Below, in pieces: positions 2,856 to 8,955 of a stretch of DNA of 8,955 nt. The translations under genes were made by a program, and so were the position numbers. The stretch is taken from positions 1 through 8,955 of IMG/VR virus record IMGVR_UViG_3300029214_000257; one strand, written 5' to 3'. Each line of letters starts with the position of its first letter. The stretch's first letter is position 1. The notes under the pieces are model-generated. The model had not been told where the DNA came from and made no database searches. It saw nothing but the letters and a program-made list of their open reading frames with translations. Origin of the DNA: a virus. Lineage: Duplodnaviria; Heunggongvirae; Uroviricota; Caudoviricetes.

Positions 2856-3074
2856 TCAAAGAGAGAGCTCCACCTGTCCTGATTTCATTGGATGCGGCTG
2901 AACCGGATTTGACTCTTTTGGCGTTGCAATCGAACGAACAAAAGTTTCATGGGTAACAAAAGTATGGCTGCAGTTAATGTTCTGGCACTGGTTGTAACGT
3001 TCTTTGGTCAATGAAGATACCTGAAAACTGCTGCGAGTATGGGCGGCACTTCCACACAGTGGGCAAATCATCAT
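2856..3074 (-). CDS. ogr: Ogr/Delta-family zinc-finger late-gene transcription activator
   Basis: 72-aa product from ATG at 3074 (MMICPLCGSAAH...CQNINCSHTF...). Cys4 spacing and length match P2 Ogr (72 aa, recalled). Lies directly downstream of the D fragment as in P2. The ORF track's 83-aa version starts 11 codons upstream. Confidence 0.75.
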   Translation of the reverse strand: MMICPLCGSAAHTRSSFQVSSLTKERYNQCQNINCSHTFVTHETFVRSIATPKESNPVQPHPMKSGQVELSL

Positions 3075-3164
3075 TTTTCGAGTTCTCCCCATTTTTGCTA
3101 AATTCACAATAATGATACCGCATTATTCCATTTTGCAAACTTAAAAGTTCTCCATTGCGAAGAA

Positions 3165-3605
3165 TCATTCCATTTCGAAATCATCAATCCTCACTTCAAG
3201 CTCCAGACTGGTCGTAAAACCATTATCCGGGCTGACGGTATGAGTCAGAGTCGTAATGGTCCATTCCGCATCATCTATCGGTTGTTTAAAGCCACTAACT
3301 TTCACTGGCATTTCCGTGTAAAGATCTGCCCGCCCTTCCGCCAGTTGTAGCGAGAATGACGCAACGCCGCGTTGCAGGCGTTCCCACTGCATTTTCGCTG
3401 CCCGTTCAGCGTTGCTCCGGTTGGCATAAGTGCGATTAAGTACCAGCACGTTTTCATCCGTACCCACCAGGTAATCGCCCTGCTTCGCTTCCGGCTCTTT
3501 CTTCTGCTTCTTAGTTCTGCGCTTACGCTTCACCGTGGTGCTTTCTTTCTTCGCAGGTTCGCGGGTATGCAACCAGCTGGCAATTACGCCCGTGTAAACG
3601 CCCAA
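3165..3605 (-). pseudogene. C-terminal fragment of P2 gpD-like tail protein (D')
   Basis: Translation (GVYTGVIASWLHTRE...LQRGVASFSLQLAEGRADLY...LELEV...) resembles the C-terminal third of P2 gpD from memory. No ATG start: the frame opens with TTG at 3605 and is open up to 3626. Sits immediately upstream of ogr as in P2. Confidence 0.55.
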
Positions 3606-4062
3606 TCTGTGCCCACTGTTCGGTGGTCAACTTAGGACGGCGTCCACCTACTCTGCCTTTGGCACGAGCTGCAGCCAGCCCTGCCCTGGTACGTTCAACT
3701 ATCAGTTCGCGTTCCATTTCAGCCAGGGCACCCATGACATGAAAAAAGAAACGGCCCATTGGGGTACTGGTATCAATACTGTCAGTCAGGCTTCTGAAAT
3801 TCACACCACGCTGGCGCAACTCTTCTATCAGCGTAACAAGATGCCGCATACTGCGCCCCAACCTGTCCAGCTTCCAGACAACCAGCGTGTCTCCTGCCGA
3901 TAGTGTCCTGAGTAGTTTTTTCAGCCCCGGTCTGTCGGACTTAGTGCCACTGATTTTGTCCTCAAAAATCTGCTCACATCCCGCGCAATTCAGTGCATTA
4001 CGTTGCAAATCGGTGTTCTGGTCATTTGTTGACACGCGTACATAGCCAATAAGCATGATCAT
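3523..4062 (-). pseudogene. truncated Pin/Gin/Hin-family serine DNA invertase (catalytic domain only; C-terminal HTH lost)
   Basis: N-terminal about 156 aa (LIGYVRVSTNDQ...DTLVVWKLDRLGRS...GRFFFHVMGALAEMERE...) closely resembles e14 Pin from memory. Homology stops after ...TEQWAQIGRL near nt 3595 and the frame runs into unrelated sequence before the stop at 3523. Confidence 0.75.
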
Positions 4063-4112
4063 CCCCCTGAATAAAAACCGGAGATGATGCCAGTTAGCTG
4101 TTACCTCTGCAT

Positions 4113-4138
4113 TTTCTTAAACGTTGGTTTGGGAGAAG
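4113..4138. other. candidate gix/hix-like invertase crossover site (TTTTCTTAAACG TT GGTTTGGGAGAA)
   Basis: 26-bp imperfect inverted repeat matching recalled gix/hix sites at about 17 of 26 positions. Located about 50 bp upstream of the invertase start, the usual site-invertase arrangement. Confidence 0.3.
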
Positions 4139-4350
4139 CCAGATATCAGCGTTGAATCTTCAGTCAGATCGGTAAGCAGCCAGATTTCTGGTGCGGTTAA
4201 TAAATGAGGTTGAGCTGGGTTCAGCTTGTTCCGCAGAATCTGCACATTCATGCCAGCACGTTCTGCCAGTTGCACCAGGTTGTGGCGCAATGCGAATGCA
4301 CGACAGGCTTCATCAAAATGTGGATGTTTGGAAACTTGGTAATCAAACAT
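4117..4350 (-). pseudogene. truncated CII-like HTH regulator (186 CII-type N-terminal domain only)
   Basis: 77 aa from ATG 4350 ([45 protein letters not shown]...). Clear HTH, resembles the N-terminus of phage 186 CII from memory. Ends at about 77 aa versus about 169 expected. SD AGAGG 9 nt upstream. Lies downstream of the apl-like gene as in 186. Confidence 0.5.
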
Positions 4351-4382: not shown

Positions 4383-4604
4383 CTAATTAAGGTTTAGATT
4401 GCATTCTGAAAGCGCATCAACGGTCATGGCTGCTATGTTGATCATCACTTTTTCGCGTTTTTTATCTTTCCGCAGACGGTGACGGATAAGACGTCCATCA
4501 GCCAACATGTCATTGATAGTATCGATGGATAGCCCTGTCAGCTCGCTATAACGTTCAATAGTCACATGAGGCGTGGTAAGAGTGATTGAAATGTTATGTT
4601 TCAT
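4383..4604 (-). CDS. Apl/Cox-like excisionase / lytic-operon first gene (small HTH protein)
   Basis: 73-aa ORF with an AlpA/excisionase-like HTH ([23 protein letters not shown]). Divergent from cI and first gene of the apl-cII-type operon. Confidence 0.5.
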
Positions 4605-4729
4605 GATGCAACATTCCTCGTTTAATGTTGATTAATCAGGACGAATACGGATCGTTTGTATTTTGTGAACATCATAAACATACGATCGCATAATGAAATC
4701 GTCAAGACAAAAGTTCACTTGGAGTGACC
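4605..4729. promoter_or_regulatory. lysis/lysogeny switch region between divergent apl-like and cI-like genes
   Basis: 125-bp AT-rich intergenic region. Minus-strand candidate promoter: -35 TTGACG (4705-4700), 17-bp spacer, -10 TATGTT (4682-4677). GTGAAC (4666-4671) and GTTCAC (4713-4718) form an inverted pair. Palindrome CGATCG at 4683-4688. Confidence 0.4.
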
Positions 4730-5299
4730 ATGAATTTGGAGAAAGGCGGACGAGGCGCTATAGAGCGCATGGTAGAAGCATATGGCTTCAAGACTCGACA
4801 GGCGTTGTGCGATCACTTAGGAATCTCTAAAAGTACTCTCGCCACACGCTATATGCGTGACTCATTCCCTGCTGAATGGGTAATCCAGTGCGCACTTGAA
4901 ACGGGCGCCTCGCTTAACTGGCTCACGACCGGACATGGTTCAAAGCAAACTTCAGGTAATACAAATACTATGGAAGTCGTTAAATATGTATTATCTGATG
5001 GAACCTTGCAGGAAGATGGTTTTTATATTTTCGATAAAGAATTTCTACCATCTACGCTCAAAAATCCGTTTGTAATCACCGATAACAATTCCGTTTTTAT
5101 TTGCGATAAAGAGTTTAACGATATTCGTGACGGCAAATGGGTAATAAGTATTGATGCCGAAGTAACAATCCGCGATATCACTCGTTTACCTGGTGGAAGA
5201 ATCTTAGTTGAAGGTGGAAATAGGGCTTTCGAATGTAAAAAAGAAGAAATCGAAATTATTGGAAAAATTATAACCATAACAGTTAAGTACTTTGAGTAA
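4730..5299 (+). CDS. cI: 186-type CI immunity repressor (N-terminal HTH domain plus C-terminal oligomerisation domain)
   Basis: 189 aa from ATG 4730, with GGAG SD 5 nt upstream (the ORF track starts at an in-frame GTG at 4724). The N-terminal domain (GGRGAIERMVEAYGFKTRQALCDHLGISKSTLATRYMRDSFPAEWVIQCALETGASLNWL) looks like the 186 CI DNA-binding domain. Length matches 186 CI (about 192 aa). Confidence 0.8.
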   Translation: MNLEKGGRGAIERMVEAYGFKTRQALCDHLGISKSTLATRYMRDSFPAEWVIQCALETGASLNWLTTGHGSKQTSGNTNTMEVVKYVLSDGTLQEDGFYIFDKEFLPSTLKNPFVITDNNSVFICDKEFNDIRDGKWVISIDAEVTIRDITRLPGGRILVEGGNRAFECKKEEIEIIGKIITITVKYFE

Positions 5300-5349: not shown

Positions 5350-6273
5350 ATGTCAACTCAAAAATTAAAATTTAGCCATATCAAAAACGATCTGAAAGCA
5401 ATAGTCATGCAGAATCGTGGAGGGCAAAAAGTTATTGAGCGTATACTCCTAGCCTATGGCTTCAAGTCACGACAGGCATTATGTAATCATCTAGGTATTT
5501 CCCAAAGTACTATGGCCAACAGATATGCACGTAATACCTTTCCTGCAGATTGGGTTGTTATATGTTCCATAGAAACAGGAGCATCAATTGAATGGTTAGT
5601 TCTTGGTTCAGATACTGCTCCTTCATCAGAGCAATATTCTGAAAAACATGCCGTTAATGGCCTTTGCAATGAAGTATACATTCCCACTATAAAGTTCGAT
5701 AATGAAAAACTCATGAATTTTAACCGAGGAGGTAAGGCAACAATAGAACGAATTGTCGAGGCTTACGGTTACAAAACGCGCCAAGCATTAGCTGATCACC
5801 TAGGTATTTCAAAAAGCACATTAGCCACACGATACATGCGTGACATTTTTCCTGCAGACTGGGTTTTGCAGTGTGCAATAGAAACGGGCCATTCTATTGA
5901 ATGGATTTCATTTGGTACAGGAGAAATGAAAAACGCAAAAAATAAAGATACTTTAACATTAGTGAAAAAAGTATTAATCAATGGCAAGTTAATAAATGAT
6001 GGCTCATATTTATTTGACCCATGTTTTCTACCTTCCAATTTAAAAAATGCATTCGTAGTATCTACCGAAGGCTCTGAATTAATATGTGAAATGGGTTTTA
6101 AAGATGTACATGATGGTAAGTGGCTAGTAAATATTGATGGAGAGAATTCATTTAGAATGATAACTCGACTACCTAAAGGACGAGTTTATATTTCATCCAA
6201 AAATCACTCTTTTGAATGTTCGCTTACAGACATTGAGTTTATTGCAAAAGTTATTATAAGTTGTTTACATTAA
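5350..6273 (+). CDS. CI-repressor paralogue with tandemly duplicated N-terminal HTH domain plus CI-like C-terminal domain
   Basis: 307-aa ORF. Residues about 24-86 and 127-189 are two copies of the CI N-terminal domain (copy 2 is about 75% identical to the adjacent cI N-terminal domain). Residues about 200-307 parallel the cI C-terminal domain (VVKYVLSDGTL...DGKW in cI versus LVKKVLINGKL...DGKW here). Alternative start at M20 (5407). Confidence 0.75.
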   Translation: MSTQKLKFSHIKNDLKAIVMQNRGGQKVIERILLAYGFKSRQALCNHLGISQSTMANRYARNTFPADWVVICSIETGASIEWLVLGSDTAPSSEQYSEKHAVNGLCNEVYIPTIKFDNEKLMNFNRGGKATIERIVEAYGYKTRQALADHLGISKSTLATRYMRDIFPADWVLQCAIETGHSIEWISFGTGEMKNAKNKDTLTLVKKVLINGKLINDGSYLFDPCFLPSNLKNAFVVSTEGSELICEMGFKDVHDGKWLVNIDGENSFRMITRLPKGRVYISSKNHSFECSLTDIEFIAKVIISCLH

Positions 6274-6298: not shown

Positions 6299-7816
6299 GT
6301 GAAATGTGGTGATTGTAATTGGAACTGGGATGAAGAAACTACCTTTATATTAGACGACGAAGAGGAAATTCTCTCCAAAGACAAACTTAATCGGAGACAC
6401 TATGCAGAATATCTATATTTTTATCTTAAGGAAAAGGGGCAAAAGAACAATACGGTAATCAACCTTAATGCAGAATGGGGAGCTGGTAAAAGTTTTTTCA
6501 TAAAGAGATTTTATAACTCAATAAAAGATGCACACCCATGCGTTTACATTGATGCCTGGAAGCAAGACTTTTCTGATGATGCATTTTTAACCCTTTTTTC
6601 TTCTTTGTCACAACAATTGCAAACATATGCAGGAAAACTTGATGCTCGATTGATACAAAGCGGCCATGCTATCGGACGCTTTACAAAAGGTGTTCTACCT
6701 GAAATCATATCTGGCCTAATCAAGACTTATGCAGGAGTAGATAACGTAGGTGATATAGCCAAAGAAGCCTCATTAATAATGCTGAAGGAACACCAGGAAA
6801 AACTGAAGAGCATTAAGGTATTAAAAAAAGAACTTACGTTATGGTCTAGGTTGGCATATGAAAATAGTTTTTCATGTCCTATATTTATCTTTATAGATGA
6901 ATTAGACAGATGCAGGCCAGATTATGCAATTTCTCTTTTAGAGATTGTTAAACATATATTCGATATTAAAAATTTTGTCTTTATTATTGCTACTGACACA
7001 GATCAATTACAACATTCAATCAAGAATGTTTACGGTAATGATTTTTCCGCAAATGACTATTTAGGCCGTTTTTTTCATAGAAGATTTACTTTAAAACAAC
7101 CTGAACTTAAAGATTTAATTAATGGTGTTGTTGGTGATTATATTGGTACCGAGTTTGAAAATATCACATCAAAAACATACCCACTAACCGCAACATTAGA
7201 AGACTTTTCAATAAATATTTCCAACGTATTTGAAGCATTTGGGTTAAATCTAAGAGACTCAATCCGAAATACTGAAAGGTTAATAGACATTCTTAAATCT
7301 GATTTAGTCAAAAAGAAAGTAGATTATATTTTTATAATTTCGCTAATGATTATATATGATAAGGATCGTCAAATTATAGATGGACTAATTGGTCGAAGAA
7401 ATGCAGCACAACGTTTCACTGATTCGATAAAGCAAAGCTCCAATTTAAAAGGTGTTTCTCAAGCCATCCTTGAATTAAATCTTGATACAAATCAGCAAAG
7501 AATAGGTGTCAATTATATCTATACAACGGCGAACAGTAGATTATTCATCTCACAGATCGAACCCAAAATAAGTTTAACATTAATAAATTACTTAGATGTT
7601 GCATTGTATTTTATCAATAATATAAACATACTTAAATCAAGTATAAAAAACAATGGGCAAAATTCACTAATGATTAAATCTAAACAAGGCCCTATTGATG
7701 GTGATACAGCTATAAAGTATTTGCAAGGAGCCCTTATAGAGAATGGACTGAATACATCTTTTTATGCCTTACATAATTACATTGAATTAATTGAACTGGC
7801 CACATCATTTGATTAA
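6299..7816 (+). CDS. KAP-family P-loop NTPase (PifA-like)
   Basis: 505-aa ORF with GTG start at 6299 and GGAG 9 nt upstream. Walker A EWGAGKS (G61-S65, nt 6479-6493). KAP-type Walker B IFIDELDRC (D200-C205, nt 6896-6913). Very AT-rich coding sequence. Starts 25 bp after the 307-aa ORF, so probably co-transcribed. Confidence 0.85.
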   Translation: MKCGDCNWNWDEETTFILDDEEEILSKDKLNRRHYAEYLYFYLKEKGQKNNTVINLNAEWGAGKSFFIKRFYNSIKDAHPCVYIDAWKQDFSDDAFLTLFSSLSQQLQTYAGKLDARLIQSGHAIGRFTKGVLPEIISGLIKTYAGVDNVGDIAKEASLIMLKEHQEKLKSIKVLKKELTLWSRLAYENSFSCPIFIFIDELDRCRPDYAISLLEIVKHIFDIKNFVFIIATDTDQLQHSIKNVYGNDFSANDYLGRFFHRRFTLKQPELKDLINGVVGDYIGTEFENITSKTYPLTATLEDFSINISNVFEAFGLNLRDSIRNTERLIDILKSDLVKKKVDYIFIISLMIIYDKDRQIIDGLIGRRNAAQRFTDSIKQSSNLKGVSQAILELNLDTNQQRIGVNYIYTTANSRLFISQIEPKISLTLINYLDVALYFINNINILKSSIKNNGQNSLMIKSKQGPIDGDTAIKYLQGALIENGLNTSFYALHNYIELIELATSFD

Positions 7817-7902: not shown

Positions 7903-8955
7903 ATGGCAGTACGAAAACTCACCACAGGAAAATGGCTTTGCGAATGTTACCCCGCCGGACGTAGTGGGCGTCGGGTGCGTAAACAATTCGCCACCAAAGG
8001 CGAAGCTCTGGCTTTTGAGCGCCACACGATGGAAGAAACCGAAGCAAAGCCCTGGCTGGGTGAATCAGTGGATCGTCGAACACTGAAAGACGTGGTTGAG
8101 CTATGGTTCAAACTACATGGTAAATCTCTGACAGCTGGGCAGCATGTCTATGACAAATTGCTGTTGATGGTTGACGCTCTGGGCAATCCTCTTGCAACCG
8201 ATCTCACCTCTAAAATGTTTGCCCACTATCGAGATAAACGCCTGACAGGCGAGATCTACTTCAGCGAGAAATGGAAGAAAGGAGCAAGCCCGGTCACCAT
8301 TAACCTGGAGCAAAGCTATCTAAGTAGTGTTTTTAGCGAACTATCCCGTCTGGGCGAATGGTCGTATCCGAACCCACTGGAGAACATGCGAAAATTCACC
8401 ATCGCAGAAAAAGAGATGGCATGGCTTACCCATGAGCAGATTGTTGAATTGCTGGCTGATTGCAAACGTCAGGACCCAATTCTGGCACTGGTAGTTAAGA
8501 TATGCTTAAGCACAGGCGCACGCTGGCGTGAAGCCGTAAATCTTACCCGCTCACAGGTGACCAAATACCGAATTACCTTTGTCAGAACGAAGGGGAAGAA
8601 AAACAGAAGCATCCCTATAAGTAAAGAGCTTTACGAAGAGATCATGGCGCTTGATGGGTTCAATTTCTTTACAGACTGCTATTTTCAATTTTTATCCGTG
8701 ATGGAAAAAACGTCTATCGTGCTCCCTCGCGGTCAACTCACACACGTTCTGCGCCATACGTTTGCGGCGCACTTCATGATGTCGGGTGGAAACATTCTGG
8801 CCTTACAAAAAATTCTCGGACACCACGATATAAAAATGACTATGCGTTACGCACATCTGGCACCGGATCATCTGGAAACGGCGCTCCGTTTCAATCCTCT
8901 GGCAACGCTGCCAAGTGGCGACAAAGTGGCGGCAGCGGTTGGCATTACCCCGTAA
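7903..8955 (+). CDS. int: P2-type tyrosine integrase
   Basis: 350 aa, alignable by eye with P2 Int (recalled): ICLSTGARWREA (Arg box), TFVRTKGKKNRSIPIS, HVLRHTFAAHFMMSGGNILALQKILGH, MRYAHL (catalytic Tyr). The 3' end overlaps the second 22-bp repeat. Confidence 0.9.
   Translation: MAVRKLTTGKWLCECYPAGRSGRRVRKQFATKGEALAFERHTMEETEAKPWLGESVDRRTLKDVVELWFKLHGKSLTAGQHVYDKLLLMVDALGNPLATDLTSKMFAHYRDKRLTGEIYFSEKWKKGASPVTINLEQSYLSSVFSELSRLGEWSYPNPLENMRKFTIAEKEMAWLTHEQIVELLADCKRQDPILALVVKICLSTGARWREAVNLTRSQVTKYRITFVRTKGKKNRSIPISKELYEEIMALDGFNFFTDCYFQFLSVMEKTSIVLPRGQLTHVLRHTFAAHFMMSGGNILALQKILGHHDIKMTMRYAHLAPDHLETALRFNPLATLPSGDKVAAAVGITP
8916..8937. repeat. 22-bp direct repeat copy 2 (candidate attL core): TGGCGACAAAGTGGCGGCAGCG
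   Basis: 21 of 22 identical to 2834-2855. Lies inside the last 14 codons of int, so the final 6 int codons (8938-8955) fall outside the repeat-bounded element. Confidence 0.55.

What the first reader, a model, noticed from the sequence alone, without database searches (positions are those of the whole stretch)
4113..4138. gix/hix-like crossover site at the cII'/invertase boundary
A 26-bp imperfect inverted repeat resembling Gin/Hin/Pin recombination sites sits about 50 bp upstream of the invertase start, exactly where the cII-like homology breaks off (the cII' ORF stops at 4117). The left-hand deletion may therefore have been a serine-invertase-mediated event at its own site, or the site may be a leftover boundary of a former invertible tail-fibre segment.
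Basis: partly seen in the sequence, partly recalled or inferred. Interest (0 to 1): 0.4.

Follow-up and report, generated by a model that had tools for sequence, protein, structure and literature searches.

The report
Orphan pixR invertase site in prophage remnant
The flagged 26 bases are a genuine recombination site of a tail-fibre-switching phage invertase, left stranded without partner, segment or working enzyme in a decayed E. coli prophage, and the neighbouring deletion was ordinary illegitimate recombination, not the invertase's work.

Summary
On the minus strand it reads TTCTCCCAAACC-AA-CGTTTAAGAAAA. That is 25/26 identical to the published pixR of e14 and 26/26 identical to the pinE-proximal site of an e14 copy and of P2-like phages. 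It sits 55 bp upstream of a Gin/Pin-type invertase gene.

In intact relatives the same site pairs with an inverted partner about 1.8 kb away inside the tail-fibre gene. The DNA between the two sites occurs in both orientations.

In the window it is an orphan:
- There is no partner site.
- Only 21 bp of the invertible segment survive (4126-4146).
- The invertase has lost its HTH domain.

The cII homology stops at 4147. That is 9 bp outside the site and 22 bp from the central AA where serine invertases cut. Both half-sites are phage-derived, and full-length cII holds no quasi-site. An invertase-catalysed deletion is therefore rejected.

A second deletion (invertase'/D') joins at a GTAA microhomology. 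This is an ordinary prophage fossil of low interest. The one residual oddity is how close the deletion endpoint lies to the site.

The parts
4112..4137 (-). Orphan pixR-type crossover site: outer (invertase-side) half-site 4112-4123, central AA 4124-4125, inner (segment-side) half-site 4126-4137
   Evidence: Single exact match in the window and none in shuffles. 25/26 to published pixR. 26/26 to the pinE-proximal site of e14 in E. coli CV261 and to phages 500465-1 and KP12.
4138..4146 (-). 9-bp remnant (GCCAGATAT) of the invertible tail-fibre variable segment, of the 'GLGEARY...' type
   Evidence: Viral contigs L079, L114 and L046 carry the site followed by GCCAGATAT(G/A)TCATTCAGCG..., which opens a long ORF. 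Their alignments to the window all stop at 4146. None of 1121 E. coli records with a cII match has this sequence in cII.
4146..4147 (.). Deletion-1 junction (invertible segment | cII codon ~68), embedded in imperfect homology: segment GAGAAGCCAGATAT versus cII AGAAAGCCATCTAC, 9/14
   Evidence: Three-way alignments with both parental types.
4147..4350 (-). cII' : the 5' 40% of a 186-type cII gene (residues 1-68 of 169). The fused ORF runs on through the junction and site to the stop at 4117-4119
   Evidence: Pfam Phage_CP76, profile positions 1-66 of 146. 70/72 identity to the ATCC 8739 prophage cII.
4057..4111 (-). 55-bp spacer between the site and the invertase start, containing a weak stem-loop plus T-run (4095-4076)
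   Evidence: Sequence. Same spacer in e14 and phages. Terminator-like hit.
3598..4056 (-). Truncated Din-family invertase gene: about 154 codons, catalytic domain with the YVRVSTNDQ serine, HTH DNA-binding domain deleted. Very likely still holds the Fis-dependent enhancer (inferred, not tested)
   Evidence: Pfam Resolvase only, whereas the intact homologue also has HTH_7 at residues 138-181. Aligns to Mu Gin 3UJ3 residues 1-157, E=1e-82. 99.5% nucleotide identity to phage 500465-1.
3594..3597 (.). Deletion-2 junction (invertase 3' part | gene D), GTAA microhomology with imperfect flanking homology
   Evidence: In L079 the two breakpoints lie 6646 bp apart.
3165..3597 (-). D' : 3' part of the late control/tail gene D, followed by ogr (2856-3107) and the prophage end next to ybjL
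   Evidence: Pfam Phage_GPD, profile positions 201-302. Matches intact prophage D genes.

Best explanation
Positions 4112-4137 are the invertase-proximal crossover site (pixR type) of a Pin/Gin-family tail-fibre inversion module. The module belonged to a P2/186-like prophage integrated between ybjL and rcdA of E. coli. In the intact phage, invertase dimers bind this site and an inverted partner inside the tail-fibre gene. With a Fis-bound enhancer they cut both sites at the central AA, rotate and religate. This flips a roughly 1.8-kb segment and swaps the fibre tip and its chaperone. In this window the module is a fossil left by two illegitimate, short-homology deletions. Deletion 1 (about 21-23 kb) runs from cII codon ~68 to 9 bp short of the site. 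It removed the replication, head, lysis, baseplate and fibre genes, the partner site and all but 21 bp of the invertible segment. Deletion 2 (about 6.6 kb) runs from invertase codon ~154 to the middle of gene D. It removed the invertase HTH domain and the sheath-to-U tail genes. The site is therefore inert in cis, with no partner and no DNA-binding invertase, and it incidentally supplies the stop codon of the truncated cII' ORF. Shown here: site identity, module architecture in relatives, inversion in relatives, both junction positions and loss of the HTH domain. Inferred: the recombination chemistry (from the family), the deletion sizes and the illegitimate-recombination mechanism.
For: In four intact relatives the same site pairs with an inverted partner (TTCTCCCAAACCAAGGTATG.GAGAA) inside the fibre gene. 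The segment between the sites is inverted between 500465-1 and p13P477T-2 while the flanks stay collinear, with the breakpoints at the two sites. Invertase-side homology is 99.5% to 500465-1 over 3588-4139 and 95.7% to L079 over 3588-4146. cII-side homology starts at 4147, and the apparent mismatches at 4142, 4143 and 4146 are explained as segment DNA. The HTH domain is lost. The second junction is at a GTAA microhomology. The order and orientation cII'-site-invertase'-D'-ogr match the P2-like gene order, and L079 holds both D/ogr and the matching invertase module in one phage. The identical double-deleted remnant sits at the same chromosomal locus in at least 23 contigs (33 index blocks), so it is stably inherited.
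Against: No intact ancestor with both exact parental sequences was recovered. The junction position therefore rests on relatives that are 95-98% identical. The nearest 'ARY-type' segments read GATAT-GTCATT-CAGCG, so a join at the CAGCG repeat in an ancestor lacking 6 nt cannot be excluded; that would move the junction by at most 5 bp. That only 21 bp of a 1.8-kb segment survive is an unexplained near-coincidence of the endpoint with the site. Recombination activity of this particular copy was not, and cannot be, tested here.
Confidence: 0.9

Rival explanations
1. Deletion 1 was catalysed by the invertase itself, recombining its site with a quasi-site in cII, as Cin does with cixQ sites.
For: Only the proximity of the junction to the site. 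Quasi-site recombination by Cin of P1 is a precedent, recalled from my own knowledge of the older P1 literature and not checked here.
Against: Din invertases cut at the central dinucleotide (PMC3241671 Table 3 legend), yet the junction is 22 bp away. Both half-sites are 26/26 phage-type, and 9 further bp of segment DNA follow. cII of relatives reads GAATCTGTGCCAGAAAGCCATCTAC at the corresponding place. Its best 26-mer match anywhere in cII is 13/26, below the shuffled mean maximum of 14.4.
Confidence: 0.02
2. Deletion 1 was an illegitimate deletion, but its endpoint was set by the site. Either bound invertase blocked exonucleolytic resection or a replication fork, or the quasi-palindromic site promoted slippage next to it.
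For: Only 9 bp lie between the site edge and the junction. For a random endpoint in about 23 kb, the chance of landing within about 15 bp of the site is roughly 6e-4 (my estimate). The imperfect homology used at the junction includes the last bases of the inner half-site (AGAA, 4134-4137).
Against: This is a single event, and the coincidence was noticed after the fact. The other three deletion endpoints show no such association. None of the 137 site occurrences examined shows another independent orphan with a breakpoint at the site edge, although that sample is biased towards intact phages.
Confidence: 0.1
3. The 552-bp invertase-plus-site piece was captured from another element, for example e14, as filler in one large deletion, rather than being what is left after two deletions in one prophage.
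For: Both of its ends are illegitimate junctions. An intact prophage at the same att site (KS-NP019) lacks the invertase module.
Against: The position and orientation of the piece are exactly those of the P2-like gene order. Viral contig L079 carries matching D/ogr (96.1%) and the matching invertase, site and ARY segment (95.7%) in one genome. e14 pinE is only about 83% identical.
Confidence: 0.04

Closest known systems
pixR of the e14 element (Pin invertase, P segment) of E. coli K-12
   Same: 25/26 identical to the published pixR and 26/26 to the pinE-proximal site of an e14 copy (L017). It has the same central AA and the same spacer to the invertase start. The partner site in that e14 copy equals the published pixL.
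   Different: Here there is no pixL-type partner and no invertible segment (21 bp are left). The adjacent invertase lacks its HTH domain and is about 83% (nucleotide) rather than identical to pinE. The host element is a P2/186-like prophage remnant, not e14.
Invertible tail-fibre modules of P2-like phages (Peduoviridae: Escherichia phage 500465-1, Cartapus, pro483; Klebsiella phage KP12)
   Same: The invertase 5' part, spacer and site are 95-99.5% identical in nucleotide sequence. Gene order is identical: fibre - segment - site - invertase - sheath.
   Different: Those phages have both sites and a complete 1.8-kb segment, seen in both orientations. The window keeps one site only.
gix (Mu Gin), cix (P1 Cin), hix (Salmonella Hin)
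   Same: The same Din-family architecture: 26 bp made of two 12-bp imperfect inverted half-sites around a 2-bp core, next to the invertase gene. The invertase aligns to Gin 1-157 with E=1e-82.
   Different: Only 15-19 of 26 site positions are identical. gix has a GA core rather than AA.
Cin-mediated recombination with quasi-sites (cixQ), giving deletions or inversions
   Different: It yields hybrid sites joined at the central dinucleotide. Here the site is entirely parental and the junction lies 22 bp away.

Membership tests
Din-family (Pin/Gin/Cin/Hin) invertase crossover site | 26-bp site made of two 12-bp imperfect inverted half-sites flanking a 2-bp core | tested here: met
   TTCTCCCAAACC-AA-CGTTTAAGAAAA. 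The half-sites agree at 8/12.
Din-family (Pin/Gin/Cin/Hin) invertase crossover site | Sequence match to curated family sites and consensus (TTC..AAAC / GTTT..GAA) | tested here: met
   pixR 25/26, pixL 21/26, cix and hixL 19/26. 26/26 to e14 pixR in L017. No chance matches in shuffles.
Din-family (Pin/Gin/Cin/Hin) invertase crossover site | Lies next to a Din-family serine invertase gene | tested here: met
   55 bp upstream of an ORF with a Pfam Resolvase domain (E=3e-53) that aligns to Gin 3UJ3 (E=1e-82).
Din-family (Pin/Gin/Cin/Hin) invertase crossover site | Paired with an inverted partner site bounding an invertible segment | tested here: not met
   There is no second copy in the window at up to 8 mismatches. 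The feature is met for the orthologous site in four intact relatives. The window copy is therefore an orphan member. The rest of the source genome could not be searched.
Din-family (Pin/Gin/Cin/Hin) invertase crossover site | Inversion actually occurs at the site | tested here: inconclusive
   Comparative evidence exists only for orthologous sites: the segment is inverted between L001 and L007 with breakpoints at the sites. Activity of this copy cannot be tested in silico.
Din-family (Pin/Gin/Cin/Hin) invertase crossover site | Fis-dependent recombinational enhancer in cis (within the 5' part of the invertase gene) | not tested
   The 5' ~460 nt of the invertase gene are retained at 99.5% identity to an intact phage, so the enhancer is probably present. 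The enhancer location is taken from the literature cited in PMC3798978.
Functional Din-family invertase (adjacent gene) | C-terminal HTH DNA-binding domain in addition to the catalytic domain | tested here: not met
   HTH_7 is absent from the window protein but present at residues 138-181 of the 500465-1 homologue. Homology to Gin ends at about residue 157.
Product of invertase-mediated (quasi-site) deletion | Junction at the central dinucleotide, giving a hybrid site with one half from each parent | tested here: not met
   The junction is at 4146|4147 and the core is at 4124-4125. Both halves are phage-type.
Product of invertase-mediated (quasi-site) deletion | Partner parent carries a recognisable quasi-site at the breakpoint | tested here: not met
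   Best match in full-length cII is 13/26 (shuffle mean maximum 14.4). At the breakpoint the match is at most 11/26.

The most novel reading that the evidence does not exclude
The orphan site is not dead. It is 26/26 identical to e14 pixR and probably still has its enhancer in cis, so Pin-family invertases supplied in trans by e14 or other prophages could recombine it with their own pix sites and drive large chromosomal inversions between the ybjL locus and those prophages. Alternatively, invertase bound at the site may have determined the deletion endpoint 9 bp away.
Probability: 0.08. Interest if true: 0.4.

Novelty: already known. Interest (0 to 1): 0.12.

Why it matters
It matters little beyond correct annotation. 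The site should be labelled an orphan pixR-type site and the neighbouring genes pseudogenes (cII', invertase', D'). The analysis shows that a deletion ending next to a recombinase site need not be the recombinase's work, because junction geometry relative to the central dinucleotide settles the question. Orphan sites identical to active pix sites are potential targets for trans-acting invertases and so possible sources of chromosomal rearrangement, but nothing here shows that this happens.

Tried and rejected
1. I first read the junction as 4139|4140, with an AAGC microhomology and three clustered 'mutations' in cII (4142, 4143, 4146). This was rejected when a viral-contig scan showed that GCCAGATAT is a genuine tail-fibre segment start.
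2. Invertase-mediated quasi-site deletion was rejected (plus the junction geometry).
3. I searched for the junction-bearing cII variant in species-representative genomes and found 0 hits. In 5426 complete E. coli genomes no record covers the remnant.
4. I searched for a partner site in the window and found none.
5. The sigma-70 promoter scan between the site and the invertase showed nothing above shuffle expectation; only the cI/apl divergent promoter region scored.
6. My first Python scan used the wrong record and is void.
7. The published dix consensus line in PMC3241671 seems to have lost a dash in the text copy, so I relied on site-by-site identities instead of the consensus count.

Full report
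**Context**

The window is an E. coli chromosomal stretch. Its left flank (grxA-ybjM-ybjL) is 99.9% identical to many E. coli genomes. This flank is followed by a decayed P2/186-like prophage.

On the minus strand the prophage remnant holds:
- ogr (2856-3107)
- the 3' part of gene D (3165-3597)
- a truncated invertase gene (3598-4056)
- the flagged site
- a truncated cII (4147-4350)
- apl/cox (4383-4604)

On the plus strand it holds:
- cI (4724-5299)
- a second cI-like gene (5350-6273)
- a KAP NTPase (6299-7816)
- the integrase (7903-8955)

Intact prophages at the same ybjL/rcdA locus show the full gene order: int-cI | apl-cII-...-rep ... head, lysis, baseplate, fibre, sheath ... D-ogr.

**Checking the observation**

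On the minus strand it reads TTCTCCCAAACC-AA-CGTTTAAGAAAA.
- It is the only match in the window at up to 3 mismatches, with none in 200 shuffles. It is also the only one at up to 8 mismatches.
- Against the curated Din-family table in PMC3241671 the identities are: pixR 25/26, pixL 21/26, cixL/cixR/hixL 19/26, gix 17/26.
- In an e14 copy with annotated pinE (E. coli CV261) the pinE-proximal site is 26/26 identical to the window site. Its partner there is the published pixL, also 26/26.
- The site is 55 bp upstream of the invertase ATG at 4056.
- The invertase has a Pfam Resolvase domain and aligns to Mu Gin (PDB 3UJ3) over residues 1-157 with E=1e-82.

**What the site does in intact relatives**

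In phages 500465-1, Cartapus and KP12 and in the phage-plasmid p13P477T-2, the same site lies next to the invertase. It is paired with an inverted partner (TTCTCCCAAACCAAGGTATG.GAGAA) about 1.8 kb away, inside the tail-fibre gene.

The two half-sites facing the segment are identical, while the outer halves differ. Between 500465-1 and p13P477T-2 the outside DNA is collinear up to the two sites, and the DNA between them aligns in reverse orientation. This is the classical Din-type host-range switch. According to the family literature, recombination occurs in a Fis/enhancer invertasome (PMC3798978), with strand breakage and exchange at the two central residues (PMC3241671).

**Where the deletion really ends**

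Invertase-side homology to 500465-1 (99.5%) runs from 3588 to 4139. cII homologues, which are up to 98% identical, seemed to resume at about 4136 but with three clustered mismatches at 4142, 4143 and 4146. None of 1121 E. coli records with a cII match shares those mismatches.

A scan of viral contigs for the site resolved this. One class of invertible segments begins, directly after the site, with GCCAGATAT(G/A)TCATTCAGCG..., encoding GLGEARY(V/I)IQRGANANGAW.... Alignments of the window to these contigs (L079 95.7%, L114, L046, L090) all end at 4146.

So 4126-4146, which is the inner half-site plus 9 bp, is segment DNA. cII DNA starts at 4147. The junction sits in a patch of imperfect homology: GAGAAGCCAGATAT versus AGAAAGCCATCTAC, 9/14.

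At protein level cII' equals full-length cII for residues 1-68 of 169. The fused ORF then reads through the junction and the site, and it stops at a TAA (4117-4119) provided by the outer half-site.

A serine invertase would join DNA at the central AA (4124-4125) and leave a hybrid site. That is not what is seen:
- The site is wholly parental.
- The junction is 22 bp from the core.
- Full-length cII has no quasi-site. Its best match is 13/26 against a shuffled mean maximum of 14.4, and the match at the breakpoint is at most 11/26.

The invertase-mediated deletion is therefore rejected. The alternative, a leftover boundary of a former invertible tail-fibre segment, is correct.

**The second deletion and the state of the invertase**

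The invertase gene is joined to gene D at a GTAA microhomology (3594-3597) with imperfect flanking homology. In L079 the two breakpoints lie 6646 bp apart.

The window protein keeps the catalytic domain but lacks the HTH_7 domain that the 500465-1 homologue has at residues 138-181. It cannot be expected to bind DNA.

The order and orientation cII'-site-invertase'-D'-ogr are those of the intact gene order. L079 carries both the matching D/ogr and the matching invertase module. Two deletions within one prophage therefore explain the structure better than capture of a foreign fragment.

**Distribution**

The identical truncated invertase is encoded on at least 23 contigs (33 index blocks) of public assemblies. 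The five places shown all lie at the same chromosomal locus, and the exact 47-nt site-plus-junction sequence was found in the four of them that extend that far. It is a stably inherited fossil.

No complete RefSeq E. coli genome (5426) carries it. E. coli AF44 has a sibling remnant at the same locus with the same cargo but a different deletion, D'|dam'. Each of the two retains DNA that the other lacks, so they decayed independently.

**Residual oddity**

Only 21 bp of a roughly 1.8-kb segment survive, so the deletion endpoint lies 9 bp from the site edge. For a random endpoint this is improbable, roughly 6e-4 by my estimate. It is, however, a single event noticed after the fact. A roadblock by bound invertase, or slippage promoted by the quasi-palindrome, is possible but unsupported.

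**Verdict**

This is a real, correctly recognised pixR-type site that is already known in kind and even in sequence. It is an orphan in a doubly deleted prophage remnant. The adjacent deletion is ordinary illegitimate recombination. Interest is low.

Noticed in passing
window 6299-7816 (+): A KAP-family P-loop NTPase between cI and int matches the PADLOC candidate defence family PDC-S20 (E=6e-78) and, more weakly, PifA and QatA. It is retained in this remnant and in the AF44 sibling remnant, which suggests a prophage-borne defence cargo that outlives the phage.
   Followed up: partly
window 5350-6273 (+): A second cI-like repressor gene (307 aa) lies directly downstream of cI. By eye its sequence holds two consecutive copies of the N-terminal HTH-like region before the CI C-terminal domain (Pfam Phage_CI_repr plus Phage_CI_C). 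It has no PADLOC hit.
   Followed up: no
L003 (E. coli AF44, NZ_OZ547155.1) 6157-13072: A sibling prophage remnant sits at the same ybjL/rcdA locus with the same cI-cI2-KAP-int cargo but a different deletion (D' joined to dam'; cII intact; no invertase or site). This indicates independent decay of related prophages.
   Followed up: partly
L016 (E. coli KS-NP019) 4204-36700: An intact ~32-kb P2/186-like prophage at the same att site lacks the invertase and invertible-segment module altogether. It carries different cargo between cI and int, so both regions are modular.
   Followed up: no
window 4076-4095 (-): A weak stem-loop followed by a T-run lies between the crossover site and the invertase start. 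It is conserved in e14 and in P2-like phages and may insulate the invertase gene from late fibre-operon transcription.
   Followed up: no
L021-L120 and other loci with the exact site: At least seven distinct tail-fibre variable-domain types follow the identical crossover site in different phages (starts GEAAKR, GEGSALP, GEGAPA, GELSLAG, GEARYVIQ, GEARFSG, GETINKA). This illustrates shuffling of fibre tips at a fixed recombination site.
   Followed up: partly
window as a whole; This exact double-deleted remnant is absent from 5426 complete RefSeq E. coli genomes. It is nevertheless present in dozens of read-archive (Logan) assemblies, so it marks a lineage that is under-represented among finished genomes.
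   Followed up: no
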